Positions 1-61,218 of a stretch of DNA of 64,000 nt are shown here, piece after piece. Made by a program: the position numbers and the translations under genes. Below the pieces are notes generated by a model. It saw only the letters and a program-made list of their open reading frames with translations, did no database searches and was not told the DNA's origin. Source of the stretch: an uncultured Victivallales bacterium (GTDB lineage: Bacteria > Verrucomicrobiota > Kiritimatiellia > UBA8416 > SLMC01); the NCBI GenBank assembly GCA_964646045.1, contig CAZYAW010000088.1, positions 239 through 64,238 on the forward strand, given 5' to 3'. Every line of letters starts with the position of its first letter. Within the stretch, counting starts at the first letter, position 1.

Positions 1-331
1 TGAAACCTTCTCCTTTATGGATCTGACCGACTACAGCCAGTTCACGCTGGAGGCCGGGGAATTGGACGAGGTCGCCGACTATCTGACCGAGAATCTGGAA
101 GGCATTACGGCCCTGATTTCCGACGAGCGCATTCTGGGCGTCGAACCGCCGCCGGTCGTCGAACTGGAGATTGTCGAAACCGCCCCGTCCGTCCATGGCG
201 CATCCGTTACGGCGCGCACCAAGGCGGCCACCCTGACGACCGGCCTGGTCGTTCAGGTGCCCGAGTATCTGGAAAGCGGGGAACGCGTGCGCGTGGACAC
301 CCGCACCGCCCGCTACCTGGCGCGGGCCTGA
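1..331 (+). CDS. efp: Elongation factor P, 3' end (gene starts upstream of window)
   Basis: C-terminal EF-P motifs (..VQVPEYLESGERVRVDTRTARYLARA*). The frame is open to the window start. Stop TGA at 329-331. Confidence 0.8.
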   Translation, partial: ETFSFMDLTDYSQFTLEAGELDEVADYLTENLEGITALISDERILGVEPPPVVELEIVETAPSVHGASVTARTKAATLTTGLVVQVPEYLESGERVRVDTRTARYLARA

Positions 332-1635
332 TCCGAATTCGGCCAGACCGCATCGGGATCCAGAACGGCCGGCAGCACTTTTTGGCTGAACACGGCCGAC
401 CAGGAGTATTCACGCACGATTCTTTTGCGGAACTGCAGGCGCGGACTGTTGCGGAACGCTTTCCAGATCTGATTCGCGATCGAGCGGGCCCGGAACCTCT
501 CCGGAATATAGACGGCCTCCGGTCCGGCAATCTCGCGCAAGGCGGGAATGTCGCCCAGCGCCAGCACCAGGTCGGCCATACCGGCCTCCAGAACGGGAAT
601 GCCGAAACCTTCCTTGCTACTGGGGAAAAGCAGCACGTCCGAGACCACCATCAGCGCGCGCAGACTGGCCCGTCGAATGCTCTTCTCAAAACGCTCGCAC
701 AAGAACACGACTTCCGCTTCCAGACCGAGGTTCTGGCGCAATGCCAGCAGTTCCGCATAATAGCGAACGGAGTCGGCATTGTGCGGATCGGGCGCGCCCG
801 TGATCATCCAGCGCACCGACTTGCCCTGGGCCTTGAAGGCCGCGACGATTTTCAAGCCCGCCTCCAGATTCTTGCGTCGCACAATGCGGGCGGGCGTCAC
901 GGCCACGATGTCCTTCTCGAAAAGCCGCTCGGCCCGGTAGAATTCAAACACCTGCGACGTCAGTCCCAGCAGCGACGCAACATCGACCCCGTCGGGAAAA
1001 ACCGGCAACTCGGACCGGGCCACGCCGAAGAGCCGCCTGAACTCTTTGCGGCGCTGTTCGGATATAACCGCGTAATCGCAGCCGGGCAGACGTTGCTTGA
1101 GCAGCGACCACGGATACTCGTCGCGCTGATGACGCCGATAGTTCTTGTCGGCGAAAGTCGAATCGTGACACCAGGCCACAAAACGCGGCCCGCCGCCCCG
1201 TTCCATAAACCGGGCCAGCGCGGCGGTCAGAACCAGATTGAAATGCATCGTCATGACATTGTGGATTAGACACACATCCACCCCGTGCAGGGCCGGTTTC
1301 AGCGCCTGCTCGATCCTGCGCACGGCGCTCTCGAAACCCGCCGGCACCCCTCCTTCGTTGAGCGCGTCCACCGTAGCGCGCAAGGGGCCTCCGTCCGAAG
1401 CCGCCTCCGGCACAATCACCGTGCGCACTTGCGGATGCACCTCTCCGCCCTTGCCCGCAATAACGCGCACGCTACATCCCGCCTCGACAAACATGGCGGC
1501 GTGCGCCTCCACCACAAATTCCACCCCGCCAATCACCGGCGGGCAGGAATAATGCAGTAGAGCCACCGTCGTGTCGCGCGCAGCCCTCGCCGCCCGTGAG
1601 CGCCCTTGCCCCGTGCTAGGCCTCGAGTTTTTCAA
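313..1635 (-). CDS. Glycosyltransferase family 4 (GT-B, RfaG-like); true start may be an internal GTG/ATG near 1570
   Basis: GT4 N-terminal motif (LLHYSCPPVIGGVEFVV) and C-terminal EX7E-like region (SSKEGFGIPVLEAGMA). The 3' end overlaps the efp 3' end convergently by 19 nt. Confidence 0.7.
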   Translation of the reverse strand: MKNSRPSTGQGRSRAARAARDTTVALLHYSCPPVIGGVEFVVEAHAAMFVEAGCSVRVIAGKGGEVHPQVRTVIVPEAASDGGPLRATVDALNEGGVPAGFESAVRRIEQALKPALHGVDVCLIHNVMTMHFNLVLTAALARFMERGGGPRFVAWCHDSTFADKNYRRHQRDEYPWSLLKQRLPGCDYAVISEQRRKEFRRLFGVARSELPVFPDGVDVASLLGLTSQVFEFYRAERLFEKDIVAVTPARIVRRKNLEAGLKIVAAFKAQGKSVRWMITGAPDPHNADSVRYYAELLALRQNLGLEAEVVFLCERFEKSIRRASLRALMVVSDVLLFPSSKEGFGIPVLEAGMADLVLALGDIPALREIAGPEAVYIPERFRARSIANQIWKAFRNSPRLQFRKRIVREYSWSAVFSQKVLPAVLDPDAVWPNSDQARAR

Positions 1636-2803
1636 TGAGTCGTCCTCTCGTCCGATGAAACAAACGCGCCTGTTTCAGCACTTCCTCTTCCGCGCGATCC
1701 GCATCCCAATCCCAGGTTTTATTCATAAACGACAGCGTCCGTCCGAAATACAAACCCTTGAACGACTCCACCAGCTCCGCGCGATCCTCCCCATCACGAA
1801 AAGCCACGATCATATCGTACACGGTCGCAGCCCAGGCCTCGGGCTGGATATCGATGCGCCCGCCTTCGAACATGGCTGCCAGTTCGCGATAGAGATCCGC
1901 CGCGAGAGCTTTTTCCAGCGTGCCCCGATGCTGCCCAAAGCCTTCGCGCGCCTTTTTCTCGATCGCCGCGCGATCCACCTTCAGATCCTGCGGCGGATCC
2001 AGCTCTCGGAGCCCGAACAGTTCCTGCTCCTGCACTTCGTCGAGCGCTTTCCATTGCTCGAAACTGCGCAACACGGTCAAAAAGGCGGTACTGACCACCT
2101 GACTGAACATAGGCCCCAACTTGGGCGCGCTGGGCTTGTGCACCTTGGCTCCCAGCCCCGCGTTGCAAGTGCGGAACCCGCCTGTGATGGCGTTCATGGT
2201 CATGAAGACGTCGATCCCGTACTCCTCGGTCGTCAAATGCCAGGGCTGGCAAATCAAATGCTTCACGAAACGGCGCGACAGCGCGAAATCGCCGCCGATG
2301 GGCTGGCGTATGTTACGACAGAACAGTCCGTAGACGATGGGGAAGCAGATGTTTTTGGTGATGGTGCCGTCGTACTTGTGGCGCGAATAGACCGGATTGA
2401 CAAAATCGAAGCCCTGCCGCACCGGCTCGACAAAGTATTGGATCCATTCGGGCGTCACGCTCAGCAAATCGGCGTCCAGGCAAACCAGGATGTCCGTATC
2501 CAGTTCCATGACCTTGCGGAACATGTTTTCGAAATTGTAACCTTTGCCGGGCGTGTCCGGCGGCGTGGTAATGTAAATGCGCGGCACATCGGTCGGGGCC
2601 GCCATGAAGGCGCCCTCCGTATCGTCGGGCGAATGGTTGTCGCAGTTGATAATGGCATAGGAACGGTCCCCGCAATATTTCTTGAGACCCAGCCCGGCCT
2701 GCTCCGTCGGATAGGCGATGCTGTCAGCCTCCATATAGGATGCCAGGCCGACCACGACCTTGGCTTCCGTTACGGCTTGCGGATTGTTTTCCCGTTCGAA
2801 CAT
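1616..2803 (-). CDS. GT-A fold glycosyltransferase resembling mannosylglycerate/glucosylglycerate synthase (GT78-like)
   Basis: Motifs GKG..., DXD (CLDADL), QPIGGDFA and YGIDVF align from memory with Rhodothermus MGS motifs (GKGDGMNTAL, FYDADI, QPLGGE, WGID). AAGGAG Shine-Dalgarno 9 nt upstream of the ATG. Overlaps the downstream GT4 by 20 nt. Confidence 0.55.
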   Translation of the reverse strand: MFERENNPQAVTEAKVVVGLASYMEADSIAYPTEQAGLGLKKYCGDRSYAIINCDNHSPDDTEGAFMAAPTDVPRIYITTPPDTPGKGYNFENMFRKVMELDTDILVCLDADLLSVTPEWIQYFVEPVRQGFDFVNPVYSRHKYDGTITKNICFPIVYGLFCRNIRQPIGGDFALSRRFVKHLICQPWHLTTEEYGIDVFMTMNAITGGFRTCNAGLGAKVHKPSAPKLGPMFSQVVSTAFLTVLRSFEQWKALDEVQEQELFGLRELDPPQDLKVDRAAIEKKAREGFGQHRGTLEKALAADLYRELAAMFEGGRIDIQPEAWAATVYDMIVAFRDGEDRAELVESFKGLYFGRTLSFMNKTWDWDADRAEEEVLKQARLFHRTRGRLIEKLEA

Positions 2804-3144
2804 TTTTCACGTCTCCTTCTTGGGGGTTGTTGCGATTCCTATCCTGTCGCGATATCCGGAGAAACCCGCGACAGCGGGCGAAAGGGCCTGACGATCCATC
2901 CGGACTACGCACAAGGAAACACTCCGTCCGCTACCGTCATCGACGCAGGAGCCTACGCAACCAGTATGAGAATCGCATTCGTTGTCCGTGAATACTATCT
3001 TCCGCCTTCCTTGTCAAATCAATTAGCAATGAAGCATCGCATTTTTCGTGCTAAACCAGCGGTCTCATCGCATCCTGCAATGATCCGCCCCGCTTTGCTT
3101 TTGCTGGCAAGCAGCAGGGTGGCCGATGTTGTTTATCGCCCGAA

Positions 3145-3700
3145 TTGACCATCGCGCCCGGCGTGACCGTCACCGTGCAGTACCAGCGCGGACTGGAGCT
3201 GGCCAGCAAGGGCGACATGAGCATCGGACCGTCGTCGATGTTCATGGCGGAATGGGAGGGGTCGTTAGCGCCGATCCGCATAATTGGTACTCGGGAAGCG
3301 GGAGTGCGGGCCGGATCGCCGTCTATTACCGTGAGAGCTTCACGTACACGGGCGCCTACACCGCCGACATGGCGATGCCCGACGACGGCGGGGGCGCCTA
3401 CACGGCCGACATGCCAGCCGTTTTCAATATCAACGGCGGCAACAACGCTTCCAACAGCAGCGTTGAACCCGGCTCGATCGGCACGTTCTACCTGTCGGTC
3501 ACGTTCCCCTATGAGCCGATTGTCGACGGCACCGTATTCCTCTTCCGGCAGTGCGGACGGCGATGGCGAGGTGCGCGCCCGGCAGCTTCGCGGCGGGCCC
3601 CCTGCTCTGCGTGACGGCTGCGGCCGAGACCGAAGCCGCCTTGAAGGACCTGTCGGACGAGGAACGCGGGAATTTGTCGAAGCACTCGACATCCGCGTAC
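3145..3700 (+). pseudogene. Candidate disrupted ORF(s). Coding-like GC3 signal moves between three plus-strand frames (ORFs 3145.., 3126..3614, 3551..); contains an internal GAYTADM direct repeat
   Basis: GC-rich third positions switch register near 3265 and near 3545. A tandem repeat ggcgcctacac(c/g)gccgacatg lies at 3351-3410. No intact single ORF covers the signal. Confidence 0.25.
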
Positions 3701-3722
3701 CGGTCGGGGAGTTTTCCATTCT

Positions 3723-4824
3723 TCAACAGCCAGCGGTGGCGTTTTCCCATTGCGGATCGAGTGACAGGCCCAACATGCGGGCTTCGTCGAGAAAACCGGG
3801 GCGGATGCCGGTGGCGTGATGCGCGCCCAGCAGTTTGCCGTCGGGTCCCAGGCTCTGCGCGCGGTACTCCAACAGACATTGCATGCGGTATTCGCCGCCC
3901 TGCAAGGGAAGCACTTCGGAAATGTGCGTAATTTTGCGCGATCCGTCCGCCAACCGCGCGGTATGCACTACGATGTCGATAGCGGTCGCCACCTGCGCGC
4001 GCAAGGCCACCAGCGGTATGTCGAGGCCGGAAAGCAAGGCGCAGGTCTCGATGCGGAAAAGGCAGTCAATGGGACTGTTGGCGTGGATGGTGGACATGCT
4101 GCCGTCGTGCCCGGTATTGAGCGCCTGCAGCAAGTCGAGAGATTCTCCGCCGCGAATCTCGCCGATCACGAGCCGGTCCGGCCGCAGACGCAAGGCGGAG
4201 GCGACCAGGTCGCGCACGGTCACTTCGTTCTGGCCGTGCTTGTCGGGCTTGCGGGTCTCGAAGGGGACAATGTGTTCCTGCTGCAACTGCAGCTCGCTGG
4301 CGTCCTCGATCACCAGAATGCGATCCTCGTTGGGGATCAGACTGCTCAACACGTTCAGCACGCTGGTCTTGCCGGAGGAGGTGGCGCCGGAGACGATCAC
4401 GTTCTTGCGGGTCTTGACCAACGCGTCCAGCAGCTCGGCGCCGAGTTCCGAGATGCTGCCGAAAGCGATCAACTGCGGCATCGTGAGCTTTTCCTTGCTG
4501 AACTTGCGAATGGCCACCACGGTTCCGCAGCGGGCCAGCGGCGGGATGACGGCATGCACGCGCGAACCGTCGGGCAGGCGGGCGTCCAGCCGGGGATTGG
4601 CCTCGTCCAGGATACGCCCGACGTTTTTCGCCACGTTAACGGCGGCGGCCTTGAGAGCCGGCTCGCTCACAAAGCGGGCCGCCGTTTTCTCCAGCTTGCC
4701 CCGCCGCTCGATGTAGATGCAGGCCGGACCGTTGATCATGATTTCGGATACGCTGTCGTCCTGCAGAAATTCGCGTATCGGCTCGAAAAACAAGAGCAGA
4801 AAAGAATCTTTTTCCTCGACCATC
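3723..4824 (-). CDS. CpaF/TadA/VirB11-family secretion ATPase (type II/IV secretion NTPase), standalone
   Basis: Walker A GATSSGKTS, Walker B DRLVIGEIRG and His-box motifs. GGGGAGGGG Shine-Dalgarno 4 nt upstream of the ATG at 4824. The ORF-track extension to 4964 is R/G-rich and is rejected. Confidence 0.75.
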
Positions 4825-34917: not shown

Positions 34918-34990
34918 GCCCATGTAGCTCAGTTGGCAGAGCACATCCTTGGTAAGGATGAGGTCAGCGGTTCGATCCCGCTCATGGGCT
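34918..34990 (+). tRNA. tRNA-Thr (anticodon GGU)
   Basis: Cloverleaf: acceptor GCCCATG/CATGGGC, D-arm TAGCTCAGTTGGCAGAGCA, anticodon loop TTGGTAA, T-arm GGTTCGATCC. Confidence 0.85.
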
Positions 34991-36476: not shown

Positions 36477-36553
36477 AGGCCAGTAGCTCAATTTGGCAGA
36501 GCGCCGGTCTCCAAAACCGGAAGTTGGGGGTTCGAGTCCCTCCTGGCCTGCCA
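36477..36553 (+). tRNA. tRNA-Trp (anticodon CCA)
   Basis: Acceptor AGGCCAG/CTGGCCT, anticodon loop CTCCAAA, T-loop GGTTCGAGTCC, encoded 3' CCA. Canonical position between rpmG and secE. Confidence 0.9.
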
Positions 36554-39842: not shown

Positions 39843-42800
39843 ATGGCGGAAAGAATAAATTTCGGCAAACTTAACGCCGTTATCGAGCCTCCGGATCTCA
39901 TCGGAATTCAGACTCTGTCGTTCAGGGACTTTATTCAGACGGAAGTTCCCTCCGACCGGAGAAAGCCCGAAGGACTGCAAGGCGTCTTCAAGGAGGTTTT
40001 CCCCGTTGAAAGCTACGATGGTCGTTATACTCTGGATTTCGTGAAGTACGATCTTACGCCTCCGCGCATGAGCGATGTCGAGTGTCGCGCGGAAGGTCAG
40101 ACGTACGCTTCCGCTCTGCATGCGACTTTCCGCATCAAGGACGGCGACGAAATACGCGAGGACAGCGTCTATATGGGGGAAATTCCCCTCATGACCGACG
40201 ACGGTTCGTTCGTGATCAACGGAGCCGACCGCGTAGTGGTCAGCCAGTTGCATCGCTCCCCGGGAATATGCTCCGAACAAACGCTGCACGCGAACGCCGA
40301 AACCATTTATTCCATGCGCATTATCCCGGACCGGGGCTCCTGGATCGACATTCAGTTCGACATCTCGGATCTGATCTGGATTTTCATGGACCGGCGCCGA
40401 CGGCGCAGGAAGTTTTTGGCCAGTTCGTTTCTGCGCGCCCTGGGCTACGGATCGGACGACGAATTGCTGGGTCTGTTCTATCGACTGGGAGATTTGGACC
40501 TCGCAAAATCGCACTCCGAACCGAGCCTGGAGAATTTGGTCTTCAAGGAGGATGTCTCCGATTTCGATTCCAAAACCGTTCTGGGCCGGAAATACGAGGC
40601 GGTCACCACCGCCGCTCTGGAGGCCATGAAAGACGCGGGCATCCCGCGTGTCGCGATCGTGGACGTGTCCTGGGACAAGGGCCTCTTCCTGACCAGTGTC
40701 AAGGCGGACACCACGCACGATACGGACGAGGCGCTGAAGGACATGTACCATCGTCTTCGTCCCGGCGACCCCGCGACGCCGTCCAACGCGAAACAATTGC
40801 TTAAGCGCATGTTCTTCGATTCGCGTCGCTACGACCTGGGCCGCGTAGGCCGCTATAAGATCAACCGCAAACTGGGTCGCGACGCCGACAGCGATATGCG
40901 AGTGCTGTGCGTGGAGGATATCGTCGAAACCGTGCGCCATCTGATCAAGATCCGCAAGGGCGAAGAAAGCATCGACGATATCGATCATCTGGGCAATCGG
41001 CGCATACGCACGATCGGCGAACTGCTGGAAAACCAGTGCCGTATCGGTCTGGCGCGCACGGAACGACTGATCAAGGAGCGCATGACTCTCTTCGATCCCA
41101 CGACCGGTGTGCTTTCCCCGCAACGACTGGTCAATTCCAAGTCGCTTTCCGCGATTGTTCAGGATTTCTTCGGACGCAGTCAGTTGAGCCAGTTCATGGA
41201 TCAGACCAATCCTCTGGCCGAGCTGGCCCATAAACGACGCCTCAGCGCCTTGGGGCCGGGCGGACTCAATCGGGACCGGGCCGGCTTCGAGGTGCGCGAC
41301 GTGCACAGCAGCCACTACGGGCGCATCTGCCCGATCGAAACCCCGGAAGGGCCCAATATCGGCTTGATTTCATCGATGTGCATTTACGCCAAAGTCAACG
41401 ATTTCGGCTTTCTCGAAACCCCGTACCGCAAGGTGACGAATGGCGTCGTGACCGACGACGTCGAGTACATGACGGCGGATCAGGAGGAGAAATTCGTCAT
41501 CGCCCAGGCCAATGCCCCCCTGGACAAGTGCAATCGCTTCTTGAACGACACTGTCTCCGTGCGCTACCGGGGCGAATTTATCGAGGCGGCGAAGGCGAAG
41601 GTGGACTACATGGACGTCTCGCCCAAGCAGGTGGTGAGCGTGGCGGCCGGACTGATCCCCTTTCTCGAGCACGACGACGCCAACCGGGCGCTGATGGGCG
41701 CCAACATGATGCGCCAGGCGGTTCCCCTGCTGATCGCGGAGCGCCCCTTCGTCGCCACGGGCATGGAGGAACGCGTCGCCCGCGACACCCGCGTGGTCAT
41801 CACGGCCCGCAATGCCGGGACGGTCTCCTACGTTTCCGCGAACCGCATTGTGATCTCCCCCGCCCGCAAACCGTCGCAAACCGGGCAGGCGGTGGCCGCG
41901 GAACCGGACGTGTACCGCCTGCAGAAATTTCGGCGGTCGAATGCGGGGTCGTGCTTCAACCAGAAACCTCTCGTCCGCGTGGGTCAGACCGTCGCCGACG
42001 GCGAGGTGCTGGCCGACGGCCCCGCCACGCGAGACGGCGAAATGGCCATCGGAAAAAATCTGCTGGTGGCTTTCATGCCCTGGTGCGGCTACAATTTCGA
42101 GGACGCCATTCTGATCAGCGAACGCATTGTGCGCGACGACGTTTTCACCTCCGTGCATATTCAGCAATTCGAAGTGAGCGCCCGGGACACCAAGCTCGGT
42201 CCCGAGGAAATCACGCGCGACATACCGAATGTCGGCGAGGAAGCCTTGAGCAATCTCATGCCGGACGGCGTGGTGCGCGTGGGAGCCGAGGTCAAGCCCG
42301 GCGACATTCTGGTCGGAAAAATCACGCCGAAAAGCGAAACCGAACTTGCCCCGGAAGAACGGCTCCTGCGGGCCATTTTCGGCAAAAAGGCGGCGGAGGT
42401 CCGCGACACGTCGCTTACGGTCCCCAGCGGGACGCACGGAATCGTCATGGAGGTCAAAGTCGCCGCGCAGAAGGAAACGCCCCGCGTCGGCGCCGCTGAG
42501 ACGGATAAAAAAAGGAAAATCAAGAGCCTCAAGGACGAACATCGCGACACCCGACAGAAATTGACCGATGAAATCACCGAGAAATTGAGCGATATTCTGC
42601 TGGGCGAAAAAATTCCGCTTGAAGTTCTGGACGCGCAGTCCGGCGAAATCGTGATTCCCGCCAACAAGAAAATCACCAAGACTCTGCTCAGAAAACTGGC
42701 GCAGATCTGCGATCATATTCAAATCGAACGCAGTCCGATCCAAGTCAAAATCGACGAGATTGTCGGAGAATACAAAGCCAAGTTTTCCGAACTCGACGTC

Positions 42801-43634
42801 GAATATGAAGACGTGGTGGGACGTGTGGAGAGCGGCGACGAAGTGGATTCCGGGATCGTCAAGCAGGTTCGCGTCTATGTGGCGACCAAAAAGACGCTTT
42901 CCGTCGGCGACAAACTTTCCGGACGGCACGGCAACAAGGGCGTTGTGGCGCGGATTCTGCCCGACTTCGAAATGCCCTATTTAGAAGACGGGACCCCGGT
43001 GGACATTGTCCTGAACCCGCTGGGTGTCCCTTCGCGCATGAACTTGGGACAGGTCTTTGAAACCCACCTGGGATTGGCGTGCAAGACGTTGAACATGCAC
43101 GTGGCCTCCCCCATTTTCGACGGCATTCGCGAGAACGAGATGTTCGATCTCATCGAAAAGGCGGGCCATTCCCGGGACGGGAAATCGCGCCTGTTCGACG
43201 GTCGCACGGGCGAGCCGTTCGCGCAGCGCGTGATGGCCGGCTACATTTACATGCTTAAACTGCATCACTTGGTCAGCGATAAGATTCACGCGCGGGCCGT
43301 AGGTCCCTACTCGCTGGTAACGCAACAGCCGCTGGGCGGCAAGGCCCAGTACGGCGGCCAGCGCATGGGCGAAATGGAAGTCTGGGCGCTGGAGGCCTAC
43401 GGAGCGGCCTATGCGCTGCAGGAGCTGCTGACCGTCAAGAGCGACGATGTGGCGGGTCGCACCCGGATGTACGAACTGATCGTAAAAGGCGAAAACACCT
43501 TGGAAGCCGGAACACCGGAATCTTTCAACGTGCTTGTAAACGAACTGCAGGGCCTTTGCCTTAAACTGGAAATGCGGCAAGAACGATCGGGCGGCAAGTC
43601 GTCCGGTTCCGCGCATTCGGGGGAACTGTTTTGA
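39843..43634 (+). CDS. rpoB: DNA-directed RNA polymerase subunit beta
   Basis: 1263 aa with conserved rpoB blocks (e.g. [24 protein letters not shown]). Confidence 0.95.
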
Positions 43635-46600
43635 ACTATCGATCCGCCAAGGAATTACTGGAAGGGGTCTCGGGGCCGGCGAACTTCAATTCCATCGCCA
43701 TTACACTGGCGTCCCCCGAATCCATTCGCGCCTGGAGCTGGGGCGAAGTCAAGAACCCCGAAACTATTAACTACCGAACCTACAAGCCCGAACGCGGCGG
43801 ATTGTTCTGCGAGCGTATTTTCGGACCGACCAAGGACTGGGAATGCAGTTGCGGCAAGTACAAGCGCATCAAGCACAAGGGCGTCATTTGCGACCGCTGC
43901 GGCGTAGAGGTCACCCTTTCCAAGGTTCGGCGCGAGCGGATGGGCCACATTGAACTGGCCGTTCCCGTTTCGCACATCTGGTTCTTCAAGTGTACCCCGA
44001 GCCGCCTCGGTCTGATGATGGACATCACCACAACCAGCCTGGAGCGCGTGCTTTACTACGAGGACTACATGGTCGTCGATCCCGGCGACACCCCGCTGAC
44101 GCACAAGCAGATGATGAGCGAGATCGAGTGCCGGGAGGCCGTACAGAAGTTCGGAGAAAATGCCTTCACGGTCAAAACGGGAGCCGAAGCCGTTCGCGAC
44201 GTCCTGGCGGCGACCGACCTTGGAAAGTTCATGGAGGAACTGGAGGAAGCCATGGACAATACGCGCAATAAGCAGACGCGCAAGAAGCTCTCCAAGCAAA
44301 TGAAACTGGCCGAAGGATTCCGAACCAACGGGACCCGTCCCGAATGGATGATTCTCGACGTTCTGCCCGTGATTCCGCCGGAACTTCGCCCGCTGGTACC
44401 TCTGGAAGGCGGACGTTTCGCGACTTCGGACTTGAACGATCTGTACCGGCGCGTCATCAATCGCAACAACCGGCTGAAAAATCTTCAGCAGCTCAAAACG
44501 CCCAACGTCATCATCCGCAACGAGAAACGCATGCTCCAGGAGGCGGTAGACGCCGTCTTCGACAACGGGCGCCACGGTCGCGCCGTGACCGGCGCCGGCA
44601 ATCGGCCGCTCAAATCCCTCAGCGACATGCTGCGCGGCAAGAGCGGACGATTCCGCCAGAACCTGCTGGGTAAGCGCGTGGACTACTCCGGCCGTTCCGT
44701 CATTGTCGTCGGCCCGGAACTGAAGCTCAACCAGTGCGGACTCCCGCAGAAAATGGCCCTGGTGCTGTTCGAGCCGTTCATCATCAAACGTCTCAAGGAC
44801 ATGGGCGTGGTGCATACGGTACGCGGAGCGAAGAAGCTGATTGAACGCCGCACGGACCAGGTCTGGGACGTTCTCGAGGATGTGATCAAGAACAAGACGG
44901 TCATGCTCAACCGGGCTCCTACCCTGCACCGTCTGAGTATTCAGTCGTTCGAGCCGGTTCTGATAGAGGGCGAGGCGATCCAGATCCATCCACTGGTGTG
45001 TACCGCGTTCAATGCCGACTTCGACGGCGACCAAATGTCCGTGCACGTGCCTCTGTCCATCGAAGCGCAGCAGGAGTCACGGCTGCTGATGCTCTCGACC
45101 AACAACATTTTCTCTCCTTCCAGCGGTCGTTCCATGATGACGCCCACGCAGGATATCGCGCTGGGCCTCTACTATCTGACCGATTTGAGCCAGTCTGAAA
45201 AACGGCGCCGCCTGTCGAAACCGAATCAGGCCGAAGAAGAAGAACAAGCAAAACGTATGCCGGTTTGCGCCAATGCGGAAGAAGTGCGCCTGGCCCACGA
45301 GGACGGAGCCCTCGGCATACACGATCTCATTCGTTTCAAAAACCCGGATCGAGGCCGGGAAACCATTCATGGAGATCGTGACTCCAACTACATTGTCACC
45401 ACCCCGGGCCGCGTGTTTTTCAACGAAATATGGCCCCCGGAAATCGGTTTTGTCAACGCGATCATGAACAAGAACATGGTCGGCGACCTGATCAGCGACT
45501 GCTACGGGGTCGCCTCCCACAAGCGACTGGTCAAGGCGCTGGACGCGCTCAAAACCATCGGTTTCGAGTACGCCACGCTGGCTGGCGTCTCGATCGGGCT
45601 GGTGGACATGATCATCCCGACCGAAAAGAAGACCATCCTCGACAGGACAAAGGGCCAGGTGGACGCCGTACGCCACCAATATCGTCAGGGCATAGTCACA
45701 GACGGCGAACGGCACAACAAAGTGCTGGACATTTGGACGCAGGCGACCGACGACGTGGCCGACGCCATGTACCGGGCCATCGAGATCAATCAGAACAGCG
45801 ACGAATGCAACCCCGTTTTCATGATGGTGGATTCCAAAGCGCGCGGCAGCCGCCAGCAGATTCGCCAGCTTTGCGGAATTCGCGGTCTGATGGCCAAGCC
45901 TTCGGGTGAAATCATCGAGCGGCCGATCATCTCCAATTTCAGAGAAGGCCTCAGCGTGCTGGAATACTTCATCAGCACCCACGGAGCACGCAAGGGATTG
46001 GCGGACACGGCGCTGAAAACGGCCGATGCCGGATATCTGACGCGCAAGCTGGTGGACGTAGCCCACGACGTCATTATCGTGGAACACGACTGCAATACGG
46101 TCAACGGCATCGAGGTGGGCGCCATGATGGAGGGCGACGAAGTCCTGATTCCTCTGCGCCAAAGAGTGGTCGGACGCACCGCGCTGAATGACATTGCCGA
46201 CCCGGTCAGCGGCCAGATCATTGTGGCGGCGGGCGACGAGATCAAGGAAAGCGACTGCAACGAAATCGAGAAACGCGGCATCGACAGTCTGCGCATCCGC
46301 AGCGTCCTGACCTGCGAGTCGCGCCGCGGCCTGTGCATGCGCTGCTACGGACGCGATCTGACAACCGGTCAGACAGTGGATGTCGGCACGGCGGTCGGCA
46401 CGATCGCAGCCCAGTCGATCGGCGAACCCGGCACCCAGTTGACGCTGCGCACCTTCCATATCGGCGGCACGGCCAGTTCCATTTTCAAGCAGCCGGAAAT
46501 CGTCTCCAAAAAGGGCGGTATCGTTCGACATCACGACTTACGCGTGGTCAGGAACCCGAGCGGCAATTTTGTGGCGCTGAACAAGAACGGGGTCATTAGC

Positions 46601-47821
46601 GTACACGACGAGTCCGGCCACGAGGTGGAACGATTCACCACGGCCATCGGCGCGCAGATATTTGTCGAGGACGGCGGCCGGATCGAGCCGGGCGGACTGC
46701 TGGCCAAATGGGATCCGTACAGCGTCCCGATTCTAGCCGAACAGGAGGGGCAGATCCTGTTCCACGATTTCATCGAAAACGTTTCCGTCAAGCGTGAAGT
46801 CGATGAAGCAACCGGCACAAGCGGCATTGTCGTCCTGGAGAACAAACAGGCGCTGCATCCGCAAATCATTATCAAAAGCGCAAGCTCCGACGAGGTGCTG
46901 GGTTTCTACAGTATTCCGACCGGGGCGCGCGTGATGGTCGATGCCGACATGACCGTGCATCCCGGCGATCTTCTGGCGCGCACGCCCAGGAAAGAGTCGA
47001 AAACTCGGGATATCGTCGGCGGTCTGCCCCGCGTGGCCGAACTGTTCGAGGCCCGCCAGCCCAAAGACGCCGCCGAAATCGCGCGTATCGAAGGCCTGGT
47101 GGACTTCGGGGAAAACCAGCGCGGGAAGCGCTGCCTCGTCATCCGCGACGAAATTACCGGCGGCGAAGAGGAACATCTGATTCCCATGGGCAAGCACATC
47201 ATCGTCTTCAAAGGCGACAAGGTCAAGAAAGGGCAGCAGTTGACGGACGGCCCCATTGTCCCCCAGGAAATTCTCGATGTGTGCGGACCGCAGGAACTGC
47301 AGGAATACCTGGTGCGCGAGGTGCAGCAGGTCTATCGTCTGCAGGGCGTCGAAATCAACGACAAACACGTCGAGGTCATCGTTCGTCAAATGTTGCGCAA
47401 GGTCAAAATTACGAATCCGGGCGACACGGAGTTCCTCTGGGGCGACCAGGTCATGAAACAGACCTTCATCGAGGTGAACGAGGCCGCCAAGCGGGAAGGC
47501 AAGCGCCCGGCCGAGGCGACTCCGGCTCTGCTGGGTATTACCAAGGCGTCGCTTTCCACCGAAAGCTTTATTTCCGCGGCATCCTTCCAGGACACCACCC
47601 GGGTGCTCACGGAGGCGGCTACGCTGGGGCGCGTCGACGAACTGCGCGGCTTCAAGGAAAACGTCATCATGGGACATTTGATCCCGGGCGGAACCGGATT
47701 CCCGATGTACCGCAACATCAAACTGGTGCCTCTGGCCGAACCCATCGCGGAGGATCCGGCCGCCGAGGAAACCGAGGCCCGAAACGAAGCCGAAAAAAAA
47801 TTGAAAGATCTTTTGGGATAA
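43631..47821 (+). CDS. rpoC: DNA-directed RNA polymerase subunit beta'
   Basis: 1396 aa, zinc CxxC...CxxC near the N-terminus, NADFDGD catalytic motif. TTG start overlaps the rpoB stop (TTGA). Confidence 0.95.
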
Positions 47822-59413: not shown

Positions 59414-59866
59414 ATGAATCTTCATTCTCTCGAAAACAGCGTCGGCGCCCGCCGCAAACGCCGCATTGTCGGCCGCGGTATGAGTTCCGGCAGCGGCAAA
59501 ACATCCGGATCCGGACACAAGGGCCAGATGGCCCGCAAGGGGCACAAGCACAAGGACGGCTTCGAAGGCGGACAAATGCGCCTGATACGGCGCGTTCCAA
59601 AACGCGGGTTCAAGAACGCGTTGCGCGAGGAGTTCGTTCCGGTCAATGTCGGCTCCCTGTCCGTCTTCCCGGCCGACGGCGTCGTGGGTCTCTCCGAACT
59701 GGCGGAAAAGAACCTCGTAAAGGGGCCGCGCCACGCGCTCAAAGTCAAAGTGCTCGCTTTCGGTGAAATCGATCGCAAACTGACCGTGCGGGCCCACGCC
59801 TTCAGTGCGGCGGCGCGAACGAAGATCGAGACGGCCGGCGGAGTCTGCCTAATCGAAGGACAATAA
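59414..59866 (+). CDS. rplO: 50S ribosomal protein L15
   Basis: GRGMSSGSGKTSGSGHKGQ... Follows rpsE directly; no rpmD in between. Confidence 0.9.
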   Translation: MNLHSLENSVGARRKRRIVGRGMSSGSGKTSGSGHKGQMARKGHKHKDGFEGGQMRLIRRVPKRGFKNALREEFVPVNVGSLSVFPADGVVGLSELAEKNLVKGPRHALKVKVLAFGEIDRKLTVRAHAFSAAARTKIETAGGVCLIEGQ

Positions 59867-61218
59867 TGTTTTCCGCCTTCTTCAACATCTTTAAAATACC
59901 GGAACTGCGCAAACGCATTTTTTTCGCGTTCGGACTGATTTTCATCTGTCGCCTGATCGCCAGCGTCCCCACGCCCGGGGTGGATCCCGTGGCGCTGCAG
60001 GAGGCGATCAAGAGCATTGAGAGTCGCGTCGGAGGCGGATTCCTGCCTCTGCTCGATCTCTTCAGCGGCGGCGCCTTGCGGCAGGTGGCCATTGGCGCAC
60101 TGGGGATTATGCCCTACATTAGCGCCTCGATTATCCTGCAACTGATGACCGCCGTGGTGCCCAGTCTCGAACGGCTGGCGCGCGAGGGCGATTCCGGGCG
60201 GCAGAAGCTGACCCAGATTACGCGCTACCTCACTATTGTCATTTGTCTGATTCAGGGCACGACGCTGGCGATCTCGCTCGAGAATCCGCAGGCCGTACTG
60301 GGTATTGATCGAGACATCGTGCTGGTTACGGGATGGGGCTTTCGTCTGATGACCGTCCTGTCCATGACCACCGGGGCCATGCTGATTATGTGGCTGGGCG
60401 AACAAATCACCGAGTATGGCATTGGCAACGGCATTTCCCTGATCATTACCGTCAACATTATCAGCGGACTGCCCGGCGCGCTTTTCGCTCTCTACGGTCT
60501 ATTCACCAATGAAGGCGCCAATTACAACGTCTTTCACCTGGTCGGCTTAACCGGCATGTTCCTGGCGGTTACCGCCGCTACGGTGGCCCTGACGCAGGGG
60601 CAGCGCCGCATTCCGATCCATACGACCAAAAGGGTTGTTGGTCGCAAGGTGTATGGTGGACAAAACACCTATATGCCGCTGCGTGTCAACTATTCGGGTG
60701 TCATGCCCATCATTTTCGCATCTGCCTTGCTGATGTTTCCGGTCATGATTCTCAAGAAGATCCCCGCCAGTTGGGGGACGGGATTCCAGTCATTGGCCAG
60801 AGCCATGGACATGGGCGAACCGCTGTATATGGCCATCTACGCCCTTCTCATCCTCTTCTTTTCCTACTTCTGGGTTGCCACCCAGTTTAACCCCATCCAG
60901 ATCGCGGACGATCTCAAGCGTAACGGCGGGTATGTGCCCGGCATCCGGCCGGGCCGGCCGACCGCCGACTATCTTGACAAAACCATGTCACGGATCACCT
61001 TGGTCGGCGCTGTCTTTCTGACGATTCTGGCGGTTATTCCGTCGATCATGAACAAGAAACTGGGGGTGCCCTGGCAGGTTTCCACGTTCTTTGGCGGCAC
61101 CAGCCTGCTGATTATCGTCGGCGTGGCGCTGGATACCATGCGACAGGTGGAATCGCATCTGCTCATGCGCCATTACGACGGATTCTTGAGGAAAGGCAAA
61201 TTGCGCTCGCGACGCTGA
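59866..61218 (+). CDS. secY: Preprotein translocase subunit SecY
   Basis: 450 aa, 10 TM segments, SecY motifs. Confidence 0.9.
   Translation: MFSAFFNIFKIPELRKRIFFAFGLIFICRLIASVPTPGVDPVALQEAIKSIESRVGGGFLPLLDLFSGGALRQVAIGALGIMPYISASIILQLMTAVVPSLERLAREGDSGRQKLTQITRYLTIVICLIQGTTLAISLENPQAVLGIDRDIVLVTGWGFRLMTVLSMTTGAMLIMWLGEQITEYGIGNGISLIITVNIISGLPGALFALYGLFTNEGANYNVFHLVGLTGMFLAVTAATVALTQGQRRIPIHTTKRVVGRKVYGGQNTYMPLRVNYSGVMPIIFASALLMFPVMILKKIPASWGTGFQSLARAMDMGEPLYMAIYALLILFFSYFWVATQFNPIQIADDLKRNGGYVPGIRPGRPTADYLDKTMSRITLVGAVFLTILAVIPSIMNKKLGVPWQVSTFFGGTSLLIIVGVALDTMRQVESHLLMRHYDGFLRKGKLRSRR

What the first reader, a model, noticed from the sequence alone, without database searches (positions are those of the whole stretch)
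313..2803. Mannosyl-/glucosyl-glycerate-synthase-like GT78 gene paired with a GT4: candidate compatible-solute module
The 395-aa GT-A protein shares DXD and flanking motifs with single-step mannosylglycerate/glucosylglycerate synthases (GT78). It overlaps a downstream GT4 by 20 nt. In some Planctomycetes and Thermotogae, a GT4 extends glucosylglycerate to mannosylglucosylglycerate. The pair may make a (di)glycosyl-glycerate osmolyte. It is convergent with efp, with a 19-nt 3' overlap.
Basis: partly seen in the sequence, partly recalled or inferred. Interest (0 to 1): 0.5.

Follow-up and report, generated by a model that had tools for sequence, protein, structure and literature searches.

The report
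Predicted glycosyl-glycerate solute gene pair
Two overlapping sugar-transferase genes in a Kiritimatiellota/Lentisphaerota-like bacterium most likely build a glycerate-based sugar solute of the kind microbes use against salt or nitrogen stress; this is a sensible but fairly ordinary prediction, and the second enzyme is an uncharacterised variant.

Summary
A 395-aa GT-A gene (1616-2803, minus) overlaps a 440-aa GT4 gene (313-1635, minus) by 20 nt. The GT4 gene overlaps a convergent efp/efpL 3' end by 19 nt.

The GT-A has the two-domain architecture of mannosylglycerate synthase. MGS is the best fold match over the full length (TM 0.71-0.76), and the catalytic and carboxylate-binding residues are conserved. 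It lacks the acceptor-loop insertion seen in glucosyl-3-phosphoglycerate synthases. IMG labels its homologues "glucosylglycerate synthase".

The family has a strong genomic link to glycerate. All 7 independent PVC relatives carry glycerate kinase -> GT-A -> GT4. In Desulfobacterota and Gemmatimonadota the family sits next to GpgS, an MPGP-type phosphatase and glycerate kinases of two unrelated families.

The GT4 is confined to this operon. Its only detected relative with N-terminal-domain homology is the MggS-like family (hhalign E 9e-21, about 21-23% identity). It falls far short of the MggS equivalog cut-off (38 vs 640 bits).

Best reading: single-step glycosyl-glycerate synthesis followed by a second glycosylation to an MGG-like solute. 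This window lacks the glycerate kinase found in relatives. It is a new variant of a known pathway, of moderate-to-low interest, and no biochemistry exists for this clade.

The parts
1616..2803 (-). GT-A glycosyltransferase, 395 aa. It has an MGS-type two-domain architecture (GT-A domain plus C-terminal helical domain) and is a predicted NDP-hexose:D-glycerate glycosyltransferase of the GgS/MgS type.
   Evidence: ORF. Pfam MGS_GT scores 36.3 bits, above the 27-bit cut-off. NCBIfam GpgS scores 43.8 bits, well below its 262-bit cut-off. The AF2 model has pLDDT 95.3. The Foldseek top hit is R. marinus MGS over the full length, TM 0.71-0.76. The family profile against PDB gives MGS E 3e-16 and GpgS E 1e-14. 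JGI names the 100%-identical protein P0001 'glucosylglycerate synthase'.
2468..2476 (-). DAD (DXD) metal/nucleotide-sugar motif, residues D110-A111-D112 of the GT-A.
   Evidence: It aligns with D100-A-D102 of MGS and with the DSD motif of GpgS. It is at least 90% conserved in alignment A1 and invariant in A4.
2357..2383 (-). Acceptor loop R141-x3-D145-x3-T149 of the GT-A. Its length and residues match MGS R131-x3-D135-x3-T139.
   Evidence: GpgS of M. hassiacum has a 9-residue insertion here, and the Methanococcoides-type GpgS paralogues have a 3-residue insertion. Thr139 (MGS) and Thr187 (GpgS) bind the acceptor carboxylate (PMC2581804).
2138..2140 (-). His222 of the GT-A, the predicted metal ligand.
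   Evidence: It aligns with His217 of MGS and His258 of GpgS. It is invariant in A4 and at least 90% conserved in A1.
2813..2818 (-). Shine-Dalgarno-like AAGGAG, 9 nt upstream of the GT-A ATG.
   Evidence: Read directly from the sequence.
313..1635 (-). GT4 (GT-B fold, retaining) glycosyltransferase, 440 aa. It belongs to a PVC-specific family that is found only downstream of this GT-A. It is predicted to add a second sugar to the GT-A product.
   Evidence: ORF. Pfam Glycos_transf_1 scores 53 bits and Glyco_transf_4 42.6 bits. Only 340 homologues were found, and 42 of the 120 listed share a contig length with a listed GT-A homologue. It lies adjacent to the GT-A in all 7 independent PVC contexts. 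hhalign against the MggS-like family gives E 8.6e-21 over 354 columns, including the N-terminal domain. The AF2 model has pLDDT 93.3 with a generic GT4 fold.
586..612 (-). EX7E motif of the GT4 (E342-GFGIPVL-E350).
   Evidence: E342, G343, F344, G345, P347 and E350 are invariant in A2. The motif aligns with E350-GWGNQFI-E358 of the MggS-like family.
1643..1649 (-). Shine-Dalgarno-like GAGAGGA, 7 nt upstream of the GT4 TTG start and inside the 3' end of the GT-A gene. This arrangement suggests translational coupling.
   Evidence: Read directly from the sequence. L087 shows the same 20-nt overlap.
2804..3722 (.). Upstream gap with no intact gene. It occupies the position where relatives carry a class-I glycerate kinase gene.
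   Evidence: tblastn with four relatives' kinases finds nothing in the 64-kb window. The three-frame translation shows a broken + strand ORF. There is no Pfam, Rfam or locus similarity.
17..331 (+). 3' end of a convergent efp/efpL gene. It is a neighbour only and not part of the module.
   Evidence: It is not next to the pair in any relative.

Best explanation
The two genes form a translationally coupled operon for a glycerate-derived glycoside, made in two steps.

Step 1 is inferred from fold, conserved residues and genomic context. The 395-aa GT-A is a retaining, metal-dependent Leloir glycosyltransferase of the MGS/GgS type. It transfers a hexose from an NDP-sugar directly to the 2-OH of free D-glycerate, with no phosphorylated intermediate. 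Glucose is the most likely hexose and mannose is not excluded. The product is glucosyl- or mannosyl-glycerate.

Step 2 is inferred more weakly, from strict co-occurrence and distant homology to MggS. The GT4 adds a second hexose to that product, giving a diglycosyl-glycerate such as mannosylglucosylglycerate or a linkage or sugar variant of it.

The product most likely serves as a cytoplasmic compatible solute, for osmotic and/or nitrogen-limitation stress.

In relatives a class-I glycerate kinase is co-transcribed upstream. It presumably controls or recycles the glycerate pool. That gene is absent from this locus.
For: Architecture and active site:
- The AF2 model has pLDDT 95.3.
- Its best PDB match is R. 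marinus mannosylglycerate synthase over about 405 columns, including the C-terminal helical domain (TM 0.71-0.76). GpgS matches only the GT-A domain.
- The family profile against PDB gives MGS E 3e-16 (positions 84-362) and GpgS E 1e-14 (positions 15-243).
- The residue map from MGS to the window protein is K76->K87, D100/D102->D110/D112, R131->R141, D135->D145, I138/T139->I148/T149, D192->D198 and H217->H222.
- T139 in MGS and T187 in GpgS bind the acceptor carboxylate (PMC2581804).
- The acceptor loop has MGS length. It lacks the insertion present in 3-phosphoglycerate-using GpgS.

Link to glycerate:
- Seven independent PVC contexts show Gly_kinase (PF02595, up to 483 bits) -> GT-A -> GT4 with unrelated flanks.
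- Desulfobacterota loci show GpgS (NF040724) - MPGP phosphatase (TIGR01486, 212 bits against a 165-bit cut-off) - GT-A, convergent with a MOFRL-type glycerate 2-kinase.
- Four Gemmatimonadota/Planctomycetota loci combine a class-I glycerate kinase, MPGP, the GT-A and GpgS.
- Two unrelated glycerate kinase families are therefore linked to the same GT-A family.
- No phosphatase is present in the PVC operon, which fits a single-step route.

Annotation: JGI names the identical protein and several homologues 'glucosylglycerate synthase', and several GT4 homologues 'mannosylglucosylglycerate synthase'.

GT4:
- The family is small and confined to this operon.
- A Marinimicrobia MAG (L002) has a GT-A 61% identical to the window's, followed by a GT4 scoring 385 bits on the MggS model.
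- hhalign between the window GT4 family and that MggS-like family gives probability 99.3% and E 8.6e-21. The N-terminal invariants HY, HN and HD align with each other.
- PDB GT4s match only the C-terminal donor domain.
- All 41 members scanned hit NF041101.

Stress link: family members occur fused to TrkA_N and Usp domains.

Known precedent: the GgS + MggS non-phosphorylating route to MGG in Petrotoga mobilis and T. maritima, as summarised in PMC3736172.
Against: - No characterised GgS or MggS sequence could be retrieved, so orthology to the assayed enzymes was not shown directly.
- Identity to MGS and GpgS is only 17-24%.
- The GT4 scores 37.8 bits on the MggS equivalog model, whose cut-off is 640. 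Its best NCBIfam hit is an unrelated GT4 of unknown function, MSMEG_0565, at 52 bits on the C-terminal domain.
- The donor sugars cannot be inferred. The loop is PIGGD, with Gly as in MGS, but M. hassiacum GpgS also has Gly there, so the published Ser/Gly rule is not general.
- A kinase that consumes glycerate sitting in the same operon as a glycerate-using synthase is not obviously biosynthetic logic.
- The source of free D-glycerate is unknown.
- This window lacks the kinase.
- No GG or MGG hydrolase was seen.
- No solute data exist for Kiritimatiellota. The K. glycovorans paper predicts sucrose and glycine betaine as osmoprotectants (PMC5148204).
Confidence: 0.6

Rival explanations
1. The GT-A is functionally a GpgS. 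It glycosylates 3-phosphoglycerate, and an unlinked phosphatase finishes the job. The end product is the same but the route is the two- or three-step phosphorylating pathway. The GT4 would then be MggA-like and act on the phosphorylated intermediate.
For: The only NCBIfam hit of the GT-A is GpgS PRK13915 (43.8 bits). With the single sequence, the best PDB sequence hit is GpgS (E 3e-7). Some residues match GpgS rather than MGS, for example Tyr195, which corresponds to Tyr229 of GpgS and Trp189 of MGS. A glycerate kinase in the operon could in principle supply phosphoglycerate.
Against: The acceptor loop lacks the GpgS insertion and matches MGS spacing exactly. The C-terminal helical domain is MGS-like and is absent from GpgS. 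No phosphatase is present in any of the 7 PVC operons. In Desulfobacterota the family coexists with a bona fide GpgS plus an MPGP phosphatase in one cluster, which implies a non-redundant activity. 3-Phosphoglycerate is an abundant glycolytic intermediate that needs no dedicated kinase (established knowledge).
Confidence: 0.12
2. The pair primes and extends an intracellular oligo- or polysaccharide or a glycolipid on a glycosyl-glycerate anchor, rather than making a free solute. The precedent is mycobacterial methylglucose lipopolysaccharide, which is built on glucosylglycerate.
For: Glucosylglycerate is the MGLP primer in mycobacteria (PMC2581804 and PMC3240985 abstracts). The GT-A is very highly conserved across PVC genomes (65-78% identity). 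That degree of conservation fits a housekeeping role better than an accessory osmolyte. One of the top fold hits of the GT4 is a polymethylmannose mannosyltransferase (7qsg).
Against: The operon contains no methyltransferase, acyltransferase, branching enzyme or other polysaccharide gene. The N-terminal domain of the GT4 resembles only the MggS-like family, which acts on a small acceptor. Fusions to TrkA_N and Usp point to stress and osmotic physiology.
Confidence: 0.12
3. The pair is an ordinary cell-envelope (LPS or exopolysaccharide) glycosyltransferase pair. This would fit the neighbouring lpxK, heptosyltransferase and murJ genes.
For: Upstream on the same strand lie LpxK, a GT9 heptosyltransferase, MurJ and a T2SSE ATPase. 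JGI's generic label for many homologues is 'glycosyltransferase involved in cell wall biosynthesis'.
Against: This neighbourhood is not conserved. In 7 relatives the only constant partners are the glycerate kinase and the GT4. The best matches are soluble enzymes that act on small acceptors, MGS and GpgS, and not lipid-linked GT2 enzymes such as DPMS and ArnC, which rank far lower. A gap of about 900 bp separates the pair from the envelope genes.
Confidence: 0.05

Closest known systems
Glucosylglycerate synthase (GgS, EC 2.4.1.268) of Persephonella marina and Petrotoga mobilis. It makes glucosylglycerate in a single step from ADP-glucose and D-glycerate.
   Same: IMG gives this name to the identical protein. 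Many members of the window's family lie in gpgS-gpgP-GT-A clusters. From my memory of the paper's abstract, this matches the operon described for P. marina. The size is about 400 aa. A Thermococcus member of the family (P0268 cluster, 37% identical to the window GT-A by BLASTP; 38% in alignment A4) comes from the sister strain of one whose GT81 'glucosylglycerate synthase' is listed in PMC8790579.
   Different: The characterised sequences could not be fetched, so identity and phylogenetic position were not measured. Members of the family that sit in gpgS-linked clusters are only about 40% identical to the window protein. The PVC subfamily has a different operon, with a glycerate kinase and a GT4 and without gpgS or gpgP.
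Mannosylglycerate synthase (MGS, GT78) of Rhodothermus marinus, PDB 2BO4 and 2Y4J.
   Same: It is the best structural match over the full length, including the C-terminal helical domain. It is also the best profile hit. The spacing of the acceptor loop is identical, and the Lys, DXD, Arg, Asp, Thr, Asp and His residues are conserved. Pfam MGS_GT scores above its threshold.
   Different: Identity is only 16-18%. Tyr replaces Trp189, Lys replaces Arg218 and Asp replaces Glu166. The donor sugar is unknown.
Glucosyl-3-phosphoglycerate synthase (GpgS, GT81), for example M. tuberculosis Rv1208.
   Same: It shares the GT-A catalytic domain at 21-24% identity, with the DXD and His metal ligands and the carboxylate-binding Thr.
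   Different: GpgS lacks the C-terminal helical domain and has a 9-residue insertion in the acceptor loop. The window protein scores 43.8 bits against a 262-bit cut-off.
Mannosylglucosylglycerate synthase (MggS, NCBIfam NF041101; the Thermotoga maritima enzyme was assayed).
   Same: It is a GT4 that acts on the GgS product and lies downstream of a close GT-A homologue in L002. The profile-profile match covers both domains, and the HY, HN, HD and EX7E invariants are shared.
   Different: Identity is about 21-23%. The score is 37.8 bits against a 640-bit cut-off. The window GT4 belongs to a separate, PVC-restricted family of about 340 detected members. Its donor sugar and linkage are unknown.

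Membership tests
MGS/GgS-type glycosyl-glycerate synthases (GT-A domain plus C-terminal helical domain) | Two-domain architecture: an N-terminal GT-A domain followed by a helical domain of about 150 residues. | tested here: met
   The AF2 model has pLDDT 95.3, with helices from residue 229 to 394. Foldseek aligns about 405 columns to MGS with TM 0.71-0.76.
MGS/GgS-type glycosyl-glycerate synthases (GT-A domain plus C-terminal helical domain) | The DXD motif, the His metal ligand and the Lys-Asp-Asp/Glu network of retaining GT-A enzymes. | tested here: met
   K87, D110, D112, D198 and H222 align with K76, D100, D102, D192 and H217 of MGS. The roles of these residues are taken from PMC2581804.
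MGS/GgS-type glycosyl-glycerate synthases (GT-A domain plus C-terminal helical domain) | A short acceptor loop with a carboxylate-binding Thr, without the GpgS-type insertion. | tested here: met
   R141-x3-D145-x3-T149 has the same spacing as R131-x3-D135-x3-T139 of MGS. GpgS carries an insertion of 9 residues.
MGS/GgS-type glycosyl-glycerate synthases (GT-A domain plus C-terminal helical domain) | Catalytic activity: NDP-hexose + D-glycerate -> 2-O-alpha-hexosyl-glycerate. | not testable with these tools
   This needs an enzyme assay. The only support is indirect, from linkage to glycerate kinases of two unrelated families.
MGS/GgS-type glycosyl-glycerate synthases (GT-A domain plus C-terminal helical domain) | Sequence orthology to the characterised P. 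marina and Ptg. mobilis GgS. | not tested
   The reference sequences could not be obtained. Only the IMG name and an indirect Thermococcus link are available.
   Pfam MGS_GT scores above its cut-off, and MGS is the top profile and fold hit. However, GpgS (GT81) scores almost as well (E 1e-14 against 3e-16) and scores better with the single sequence. GgS is labelled GT81 in PMC8790579. CAZy itself was not available.
GpgS (NCBIfam NF010496, equivalog) | A score at or above the curated cut-off of 262 bits. | tested here: not met
   43.8 bits.
MggS (NCBIfam NF041101, equivalog) | A score at or above the curated cut-off of 640 bits. | tested here: not met
   The window GT4 scores 37.8 bits. The best E-value among the 41 family members scanned is 2.4e-17. 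Even the MggS-like GT4 of L002 reaches only 385 bits.
MggS-like GT4 clade (broad sense) | Homology across the N-terminal acceptor domain, with shared invariant motifs. | tested here: met
   hhalign gives probability 99.3% and E 8.6e-21 over 354 columns. The pairs H28-Y29/H12-Y13, H125-N126/H115-N116 and H157-D158/H146-D147 align. Solved GT4 structures match only the C-terminal domain.
Retaining GT4 glycosyltransferases | GT-B fold with an EX7E motif. | tested here: met
   Pfam Glycos_transf_1 and Glyco_transf_4 both score above their cut-offs. E342 and E350 are invariant. The AF2 model has pLDDT 93.3 and matches SPS, WaaG, MshA and BshA.

The most novel reading that the evidence does not exclude
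The PVC-specific GT4 is not an MggS. It is a new glycosyl-glycerate-extending enzyme that makes a diglycosyl-glycerate different from MGG. One candidate is alpha(1-6)glucosyl-glucosylglycerate, the solute reported in Persephonella marina. As far as I know its synthase gene is unidentified. Another candidate is a product not yet described.

The glycerate kinase-GgS-GT4 operon would then be the main, so far unrecognised, compatible-solute system of Kiritimatiellota and Lentisphaerota. The kinase would gate carbon flow between glycolysis and the solute.
Probability: 0.2. Interest if true: 0.5.

Novelty: new variant of a known kind. Interest (0 to 1): 0.35.

Why it matters
Kiritimatiellota and Lentisphaerota are widespread anaerobic degraders of glycans in marine, hypersaline and gut habitats. 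Their osmoadaptation has only been guessed from genomes, with sucrose and glycine betaine proposed for K. glycovorans.

A conserved glycerate kinase-GgS-like-GT4 operon would add glycosyl-glycerates to that picture. It would extend the rare non-phosphorylating MGG-type pathway from thermophiles to mesophilic PVC bacteria. It would also provide a new GT4 subfamily with a small-molecule acceptor. That subfamily could be useful for enzymatic synthesis of glycosyl-glycerate stabilisers.

The finding is a testable annotation improvement and not a conceptual surprise.

Tried and rejected
- **Retrieving the characterised GgS and MggS for direct comparison.** The two J. Bacteriol. papers are not held. 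The afdb50 fold library was unavailable. A cluster-member look-up of ten thermophile-like representatives gave only generic names, apart from a Thermococcus link.
- **Glycerate kinase in the window.** tblastn with four relatives' kinases found nothing.
- **Regulatory RNA or conserved element in the 2804-3722 gap.** Rfam gave no gathering-level hit. At E <= 1 the only hit was a chance 5.8S match. There was no similarity to relatives' loci and no Pfam hit for the broken ORF.
- **Promoter and terminator scan of 1-4000.** No promoter-like site was found, and terminator-like sites were at chance level.
- **Donor sugar prediction from the PL(S/G)GE loop.** I rejected this as uninformative, because a glucose-specific GpgS from M. 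hassiacum also has Gly at that position.
- **GT4 fold search.** It returned only generic GT4 matches with low TM scores caused by domain opening, and gave no clue to the acceptor.
- **Recent horizontal transfer.** I rejected this, because GC3 equals that of rpoB/rpoC.
- **Functional link to efp.** I rejected this, because the adjacency is absent from all PVC relatives.


Full report
**1. Observation**

The ORF table shows a 395-aa ORF at 1616..2803 (-) starting with ATG, and a 440-aa ORF at 313..1635 (-) starting with TTG. The two overlap by 20 nt. A + strand ORF ends at 331 and overlaps the second gene by 19 nt.

The + strand fragment is the C-terminal part of an EF-P family protein. Pfam Elong-fact-P_C scores 76 bits. 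NCBIfam gives EfpL 119 bits and efp 103 bits, both on a truncated protein.

Both minus-strand genes have Shine-Dalgarno-like sequences at the right distance. AAGGAG lies 9 nt before ATG 2803. GAGAGGA lies 7 nt before TTG 1635. The closest relative's gene call has the same 20-nt overlap (L087).

An internal GTG at Val24 remains a possible alternative start for the GT4. GC3 of the GT-A gene (0.74) equals that of rpoB/rpoC in the same window, so the gene is native.

**2. What the first protein is**

Family scans give the following:
- Pfam places it in PF21969 (mannosylglycerate synthase GT domain) at 36.3 bits, above the 27-bit cut-off. The generic GT2 model is only borderline.
- The only NCBIfam hit is glucosyl-3-phosphoglycerate synthase, at 43.8 bits against a 262-bit cut-off.

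Against solved structures:
- The single sequence finds GpgS (E 3e-7) and MGS (E 1e-4).
- A profile of 31 diverse family members (A1) finds MGS first, at E 3e-16. That alignment runs from position 84 to 362, well into the C-terminal region. GpgS comes next at E 1e-14, over the GT-A domain only.

An AlphaFold model built on A1 is confident (pLDDT 95.3, pTM 0.93). Its best PDB matches are all Rhodothermus marinus MGS chains. They align over about 405 columns with TM 0.71-0.76. GpgS chains follow, covering about 247 columns. Lipid-linked GT2 enzymes such as DPMS and ArnC rank far lower.

The protein therefore has the MGS architecture of a GT-A domain plus a helical domain, at 16-18% identity.

The functional residues of MGS and GpgS are conserved:
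- K87, D110-A-D112, D198 and H222 correspond to K76, D100-A-D102, D192 and H217 of MGS.
- I148 and T149 correspond to I138 and T139 of MGS, and to V186 and T187 of GpgS. These residues hold the carboxylate of glycerate or 3-phosphoglycerate (PMC2581804; alignments).

The acceptor loop R141-x3-D145-x3-T149 has exactly the MGS spacing. M. hassiacum GpgS carries a 9-residue insertion there, and the Methanococcoides-type GpgS paralogues carry 3 residues. In GpgS that loop is thought to contact the 3-phosphoglycerate molecule.

**3. The family and its genomic company**

The protein is highly conserved. The best 120 hits are all 65-78% identical, apart from the identical P0001. Those that carry an organism name are from Kiritimatiellia, Lentisphaerae or Verrucomicrobiota MAGs. 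JGI names the identical protein P0001 and several others 'glucosylglycerate synthase'.

The wider family is large. It has 389 clusters at 50% identity with E <= 1e-30, mostly 380-420 aa long. It spans Planctomycetota, Desulfobacterota, Acidobacteriota, Gemmatimonadota, Patescibacteria and archaea.

Neighbourhood analysis of 80 genome loci and 9 PVC loci gave three patterns:
- **PVC relatives.** All seven independent contexts (L001, L081/82, L083/84, L085/86, L087, L088, L089) carry the triad glycerate kinase (PF02595, 450-483 bits) -> GT-A -> GT4. Intergenic spacing is tight and the flanks are unrelated.
- **Desulfobacterota.** The cluster is GpgS (NF040724-type) - MPGP-family phosphatase (TIGR01486, 212 bits, above its cut-off) - GT-A. 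A convergent DUF4147/MOFRL glycerate 2-kinase follows.
- **Gemmatimonadota/Planctomycetota.** Four loci combine a class-I glycerate kinase, MPGP, the GT-A and GpgS.

Two non-homologous glycerate kinase families and the complete two-step GG pathway are thus repeatedly linked to this GT-A family. That is strong guilt-by-association for a glycerate acceptor.

The coexistence of the GT-A with GpgS and GpgP in one cluster matches what I recall of the P. marina operon in which GgS was characterised. That recollection is from memory, because the paper is not held.

Rare fusions to TrkA_N and Usp domains fit a stress or osmotic role.

A Thermococcus member of the family (P0268 cluster) comes from the sister strain of one in which a 'GT81 glucosylglycerate synthase' is tabulated (PMC8790579). 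This suggests that dbCAN files the family under GT81 and not GT78.

**4. The second protein**

It is a GT4. Glycos_transf_1 scores 53 bits and Glyco_transf_4 scores 42.6 bits. It has an invariant EX7E motif (E342...E350). A confident GT-B model (pLDDT 93.3) matches SPS, WaaG, MshA, BshA and GlgM generically.

The family is small. Only 340 hits were found, and those that carry an organism name are PVC-type or unclassified-bacterium MAGs. Of the 120 listed, 42 share an exact contig length with a listed GT-A homologue. In every PVC locus examined the GT4 lies immediately downstream of the GT-A.

NCBIfam's best hit is MSMEG_0565 at 52 bits, on the C-terminal domain only. The only model that also covers the N-terminal domain is mannosylglucosylglycerate synthase NF041101, at 37.8 bits against a 640-bit cut-off. 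All 41 members scanned hit both models.

In a Marinimicrobia MAG (L002), a GT-A 61% identical to the window's is followed by a GT4 that scores 385 bits on NF041101. The window GT4 is 23% identical to that protein.

The profile-profile comparison of the two families gives probability 99.3% and E 8.6e-21 over 354 columns. The N-terminal invariants (HY, HN, HD) and the EX7E motif are in register. Solved GT4 structures match the window family only in the C-terminal donor domain. No solved structure matches the MggS-like family at all.

The GT4 is therefore a distant sister of MggS and not a member of the equivalog.

**5. Mechanism proposed**

Two things are shown: retaining-type GT-A and GT4 catalytic machinery, and operon coupling. 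The reactions themselves are inferred:
- The GT-A condenses an NDP-hexose with free D-glycerate in one step, giving GG or MG.
- The GT4 adds a second hexose, giving an MGG-like diglycosyl-glycerate.
- The product is a cytoplasmic compatible solute.

The known precedent is the GgS + MggS non-phosphorylating route in Petrotoga mobilis, with the T. maritima MggS assayed, as summarised in PMC3736172.

The donor sugars cannot be called. The loop reads PIGGD, with Gly as in MGS. A glucose-specific GpgS also has Gly at that position, so the published Ser/Gly rule fails.

The role of the co-transcribed glycerate kinase in relatives is unresolved. Control or recycling of the glycerate pool is the simplest idea.

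**6. What is different here**

This window lacks the kinase. tblastn finds none in the 64 kb. The 919-bp stretch from 2804 to 3722 holds only a + strand reading frame broken into three frames. It has no Pfam, Rfam or locus similarity.

The envelope genes further upstream (T2SSE ATPase, MurJ, GT9, LpxK) and the convergent efp are not conserved next to the pair in PVC relatives. I regard them as incidental.

**7. Rivals**

- A GpgS-like activity on 3-phosphoglycerate. The loop length, the helical domain, the lack of a phosphatase in the operon and coexistence with true GpgS all argue against it.
- A glycosyl-glycerate-primed polymer, as in mycobacterial MGLP. No tailoring genes are present, and the GT4 resembles enzymes that act on small acceptors.
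- An envelope glycosyltransferase pair. The context is not conserved and the best hits are of the wrong kind.

**8. Novelty and score**

I found no paper that connects Kiritimatiellota with glucosylglycerate synthesis. The K. glycovorans paper predicts sucrose and glycine betaine as osmoprotectants. IMG's automatic names already say GgS and MggS for some homologues, so the idea is implicit in public annotation.

I rate this a new variant of a known kind. The pathway logic is known. The new elements are a PVC-specific GT4 subfamily and a kinase-containing operon, which is incomplete in this window. Interest is 0.35.

The main weakness is that orthology to the assayed GgS and MggS could not be measured, and no biochemistry exists for this clade.

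Noticed in passing
window 2804-3722: This 919-bp stretch has no intact gene. On the + strand, a signal-peptide-like start (MIRPALLLLASS...) continues through three reading frames (ELTIAPGVTVTVQYQRG...; VVDVHGGMGG...FPYEPIVDGTVFLF). It looks like a small secreted protein broken by at least two frameshifts, either a pseudogene or assembly indels. It has no Pfam, Rfam or locus similarity. It occupies the position where all 7 PVC relatives carry a glycerate kinase gene.
   Followed up: partly
L001, L081-L089 (PVC relatives of the window locus): These loci share a conserved three-gene operon, class-I glycerate kinase -> GT-A -> GT4, with unrelated flanks. The kinase is missing from the whole 64-kb window.
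   Followed up: yes
L026, L029, L034, L037, L043 and others (Desulfobacterota); L017, L019, L021, L024: The GT-A family sits in clusters with a Methanococcoides-type GpgS, an MPGP-family phosphatase and a glycerate kinase. The kinase is MOFRL-type in Desulfobacterota and class I in Gemmatimonadota/Planctomycetota. Both routes to a glycosyl-glycerate are therefore encoded side by side.
   Followed up: partly
proteins P0350, P0289, P0345, P0241 (family representatives): The GT-A family occurs in several domain fusions: with TrkA_N, with Usp plus a second GT2 domain, with a histidine phosphatase (only the GT-A domain matched in that case), and as a triple tandem of 1179 aa.
   Followed up: no
window 17-331 (+): The truncated EF-P family gene scores slightly better on the EfpL/YeiP model (119 bits) than on efp (103 bits). 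Only the C-terminal 104 aa lie in the window, so the subtype cannot be decided.
   Followed up: no
PDB 7pdo/7p5l alignment: M. hassiacum GpgS reads QPLGGE where M. tuberculosis GpgS reads PLSGE. The proposed Ser-based discrimination against mannose (PMC2581804) is therefore not a general rule for predicting the donor sugar.
   Followed up: no
window 34918-34990, 36477-36550; 39843-47821; 59866-61218: The window contains two tRNA genes, rpoB-rpoC, a run of ribosomal protein genes, and secY-adk-map. It is core chromosome. Several long ORFs with low GC3 (0.58-0.68) in 8.7-16.5 kb and 22-38 kb look like antisense artefacts of my greedy ORF picker and were not examined.
   Followed up: no
L004 10451-11716 (-): A Planctomycetaceae MAG with a GT-A 54% identical to the window's carries an MggS-like GT4 about 3 kb away on the other strand (29% identity and 174 bits to the L002 protein). 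R. baltica was reported to lack a GgS homologue (PMC3736172).
   Followed up: no
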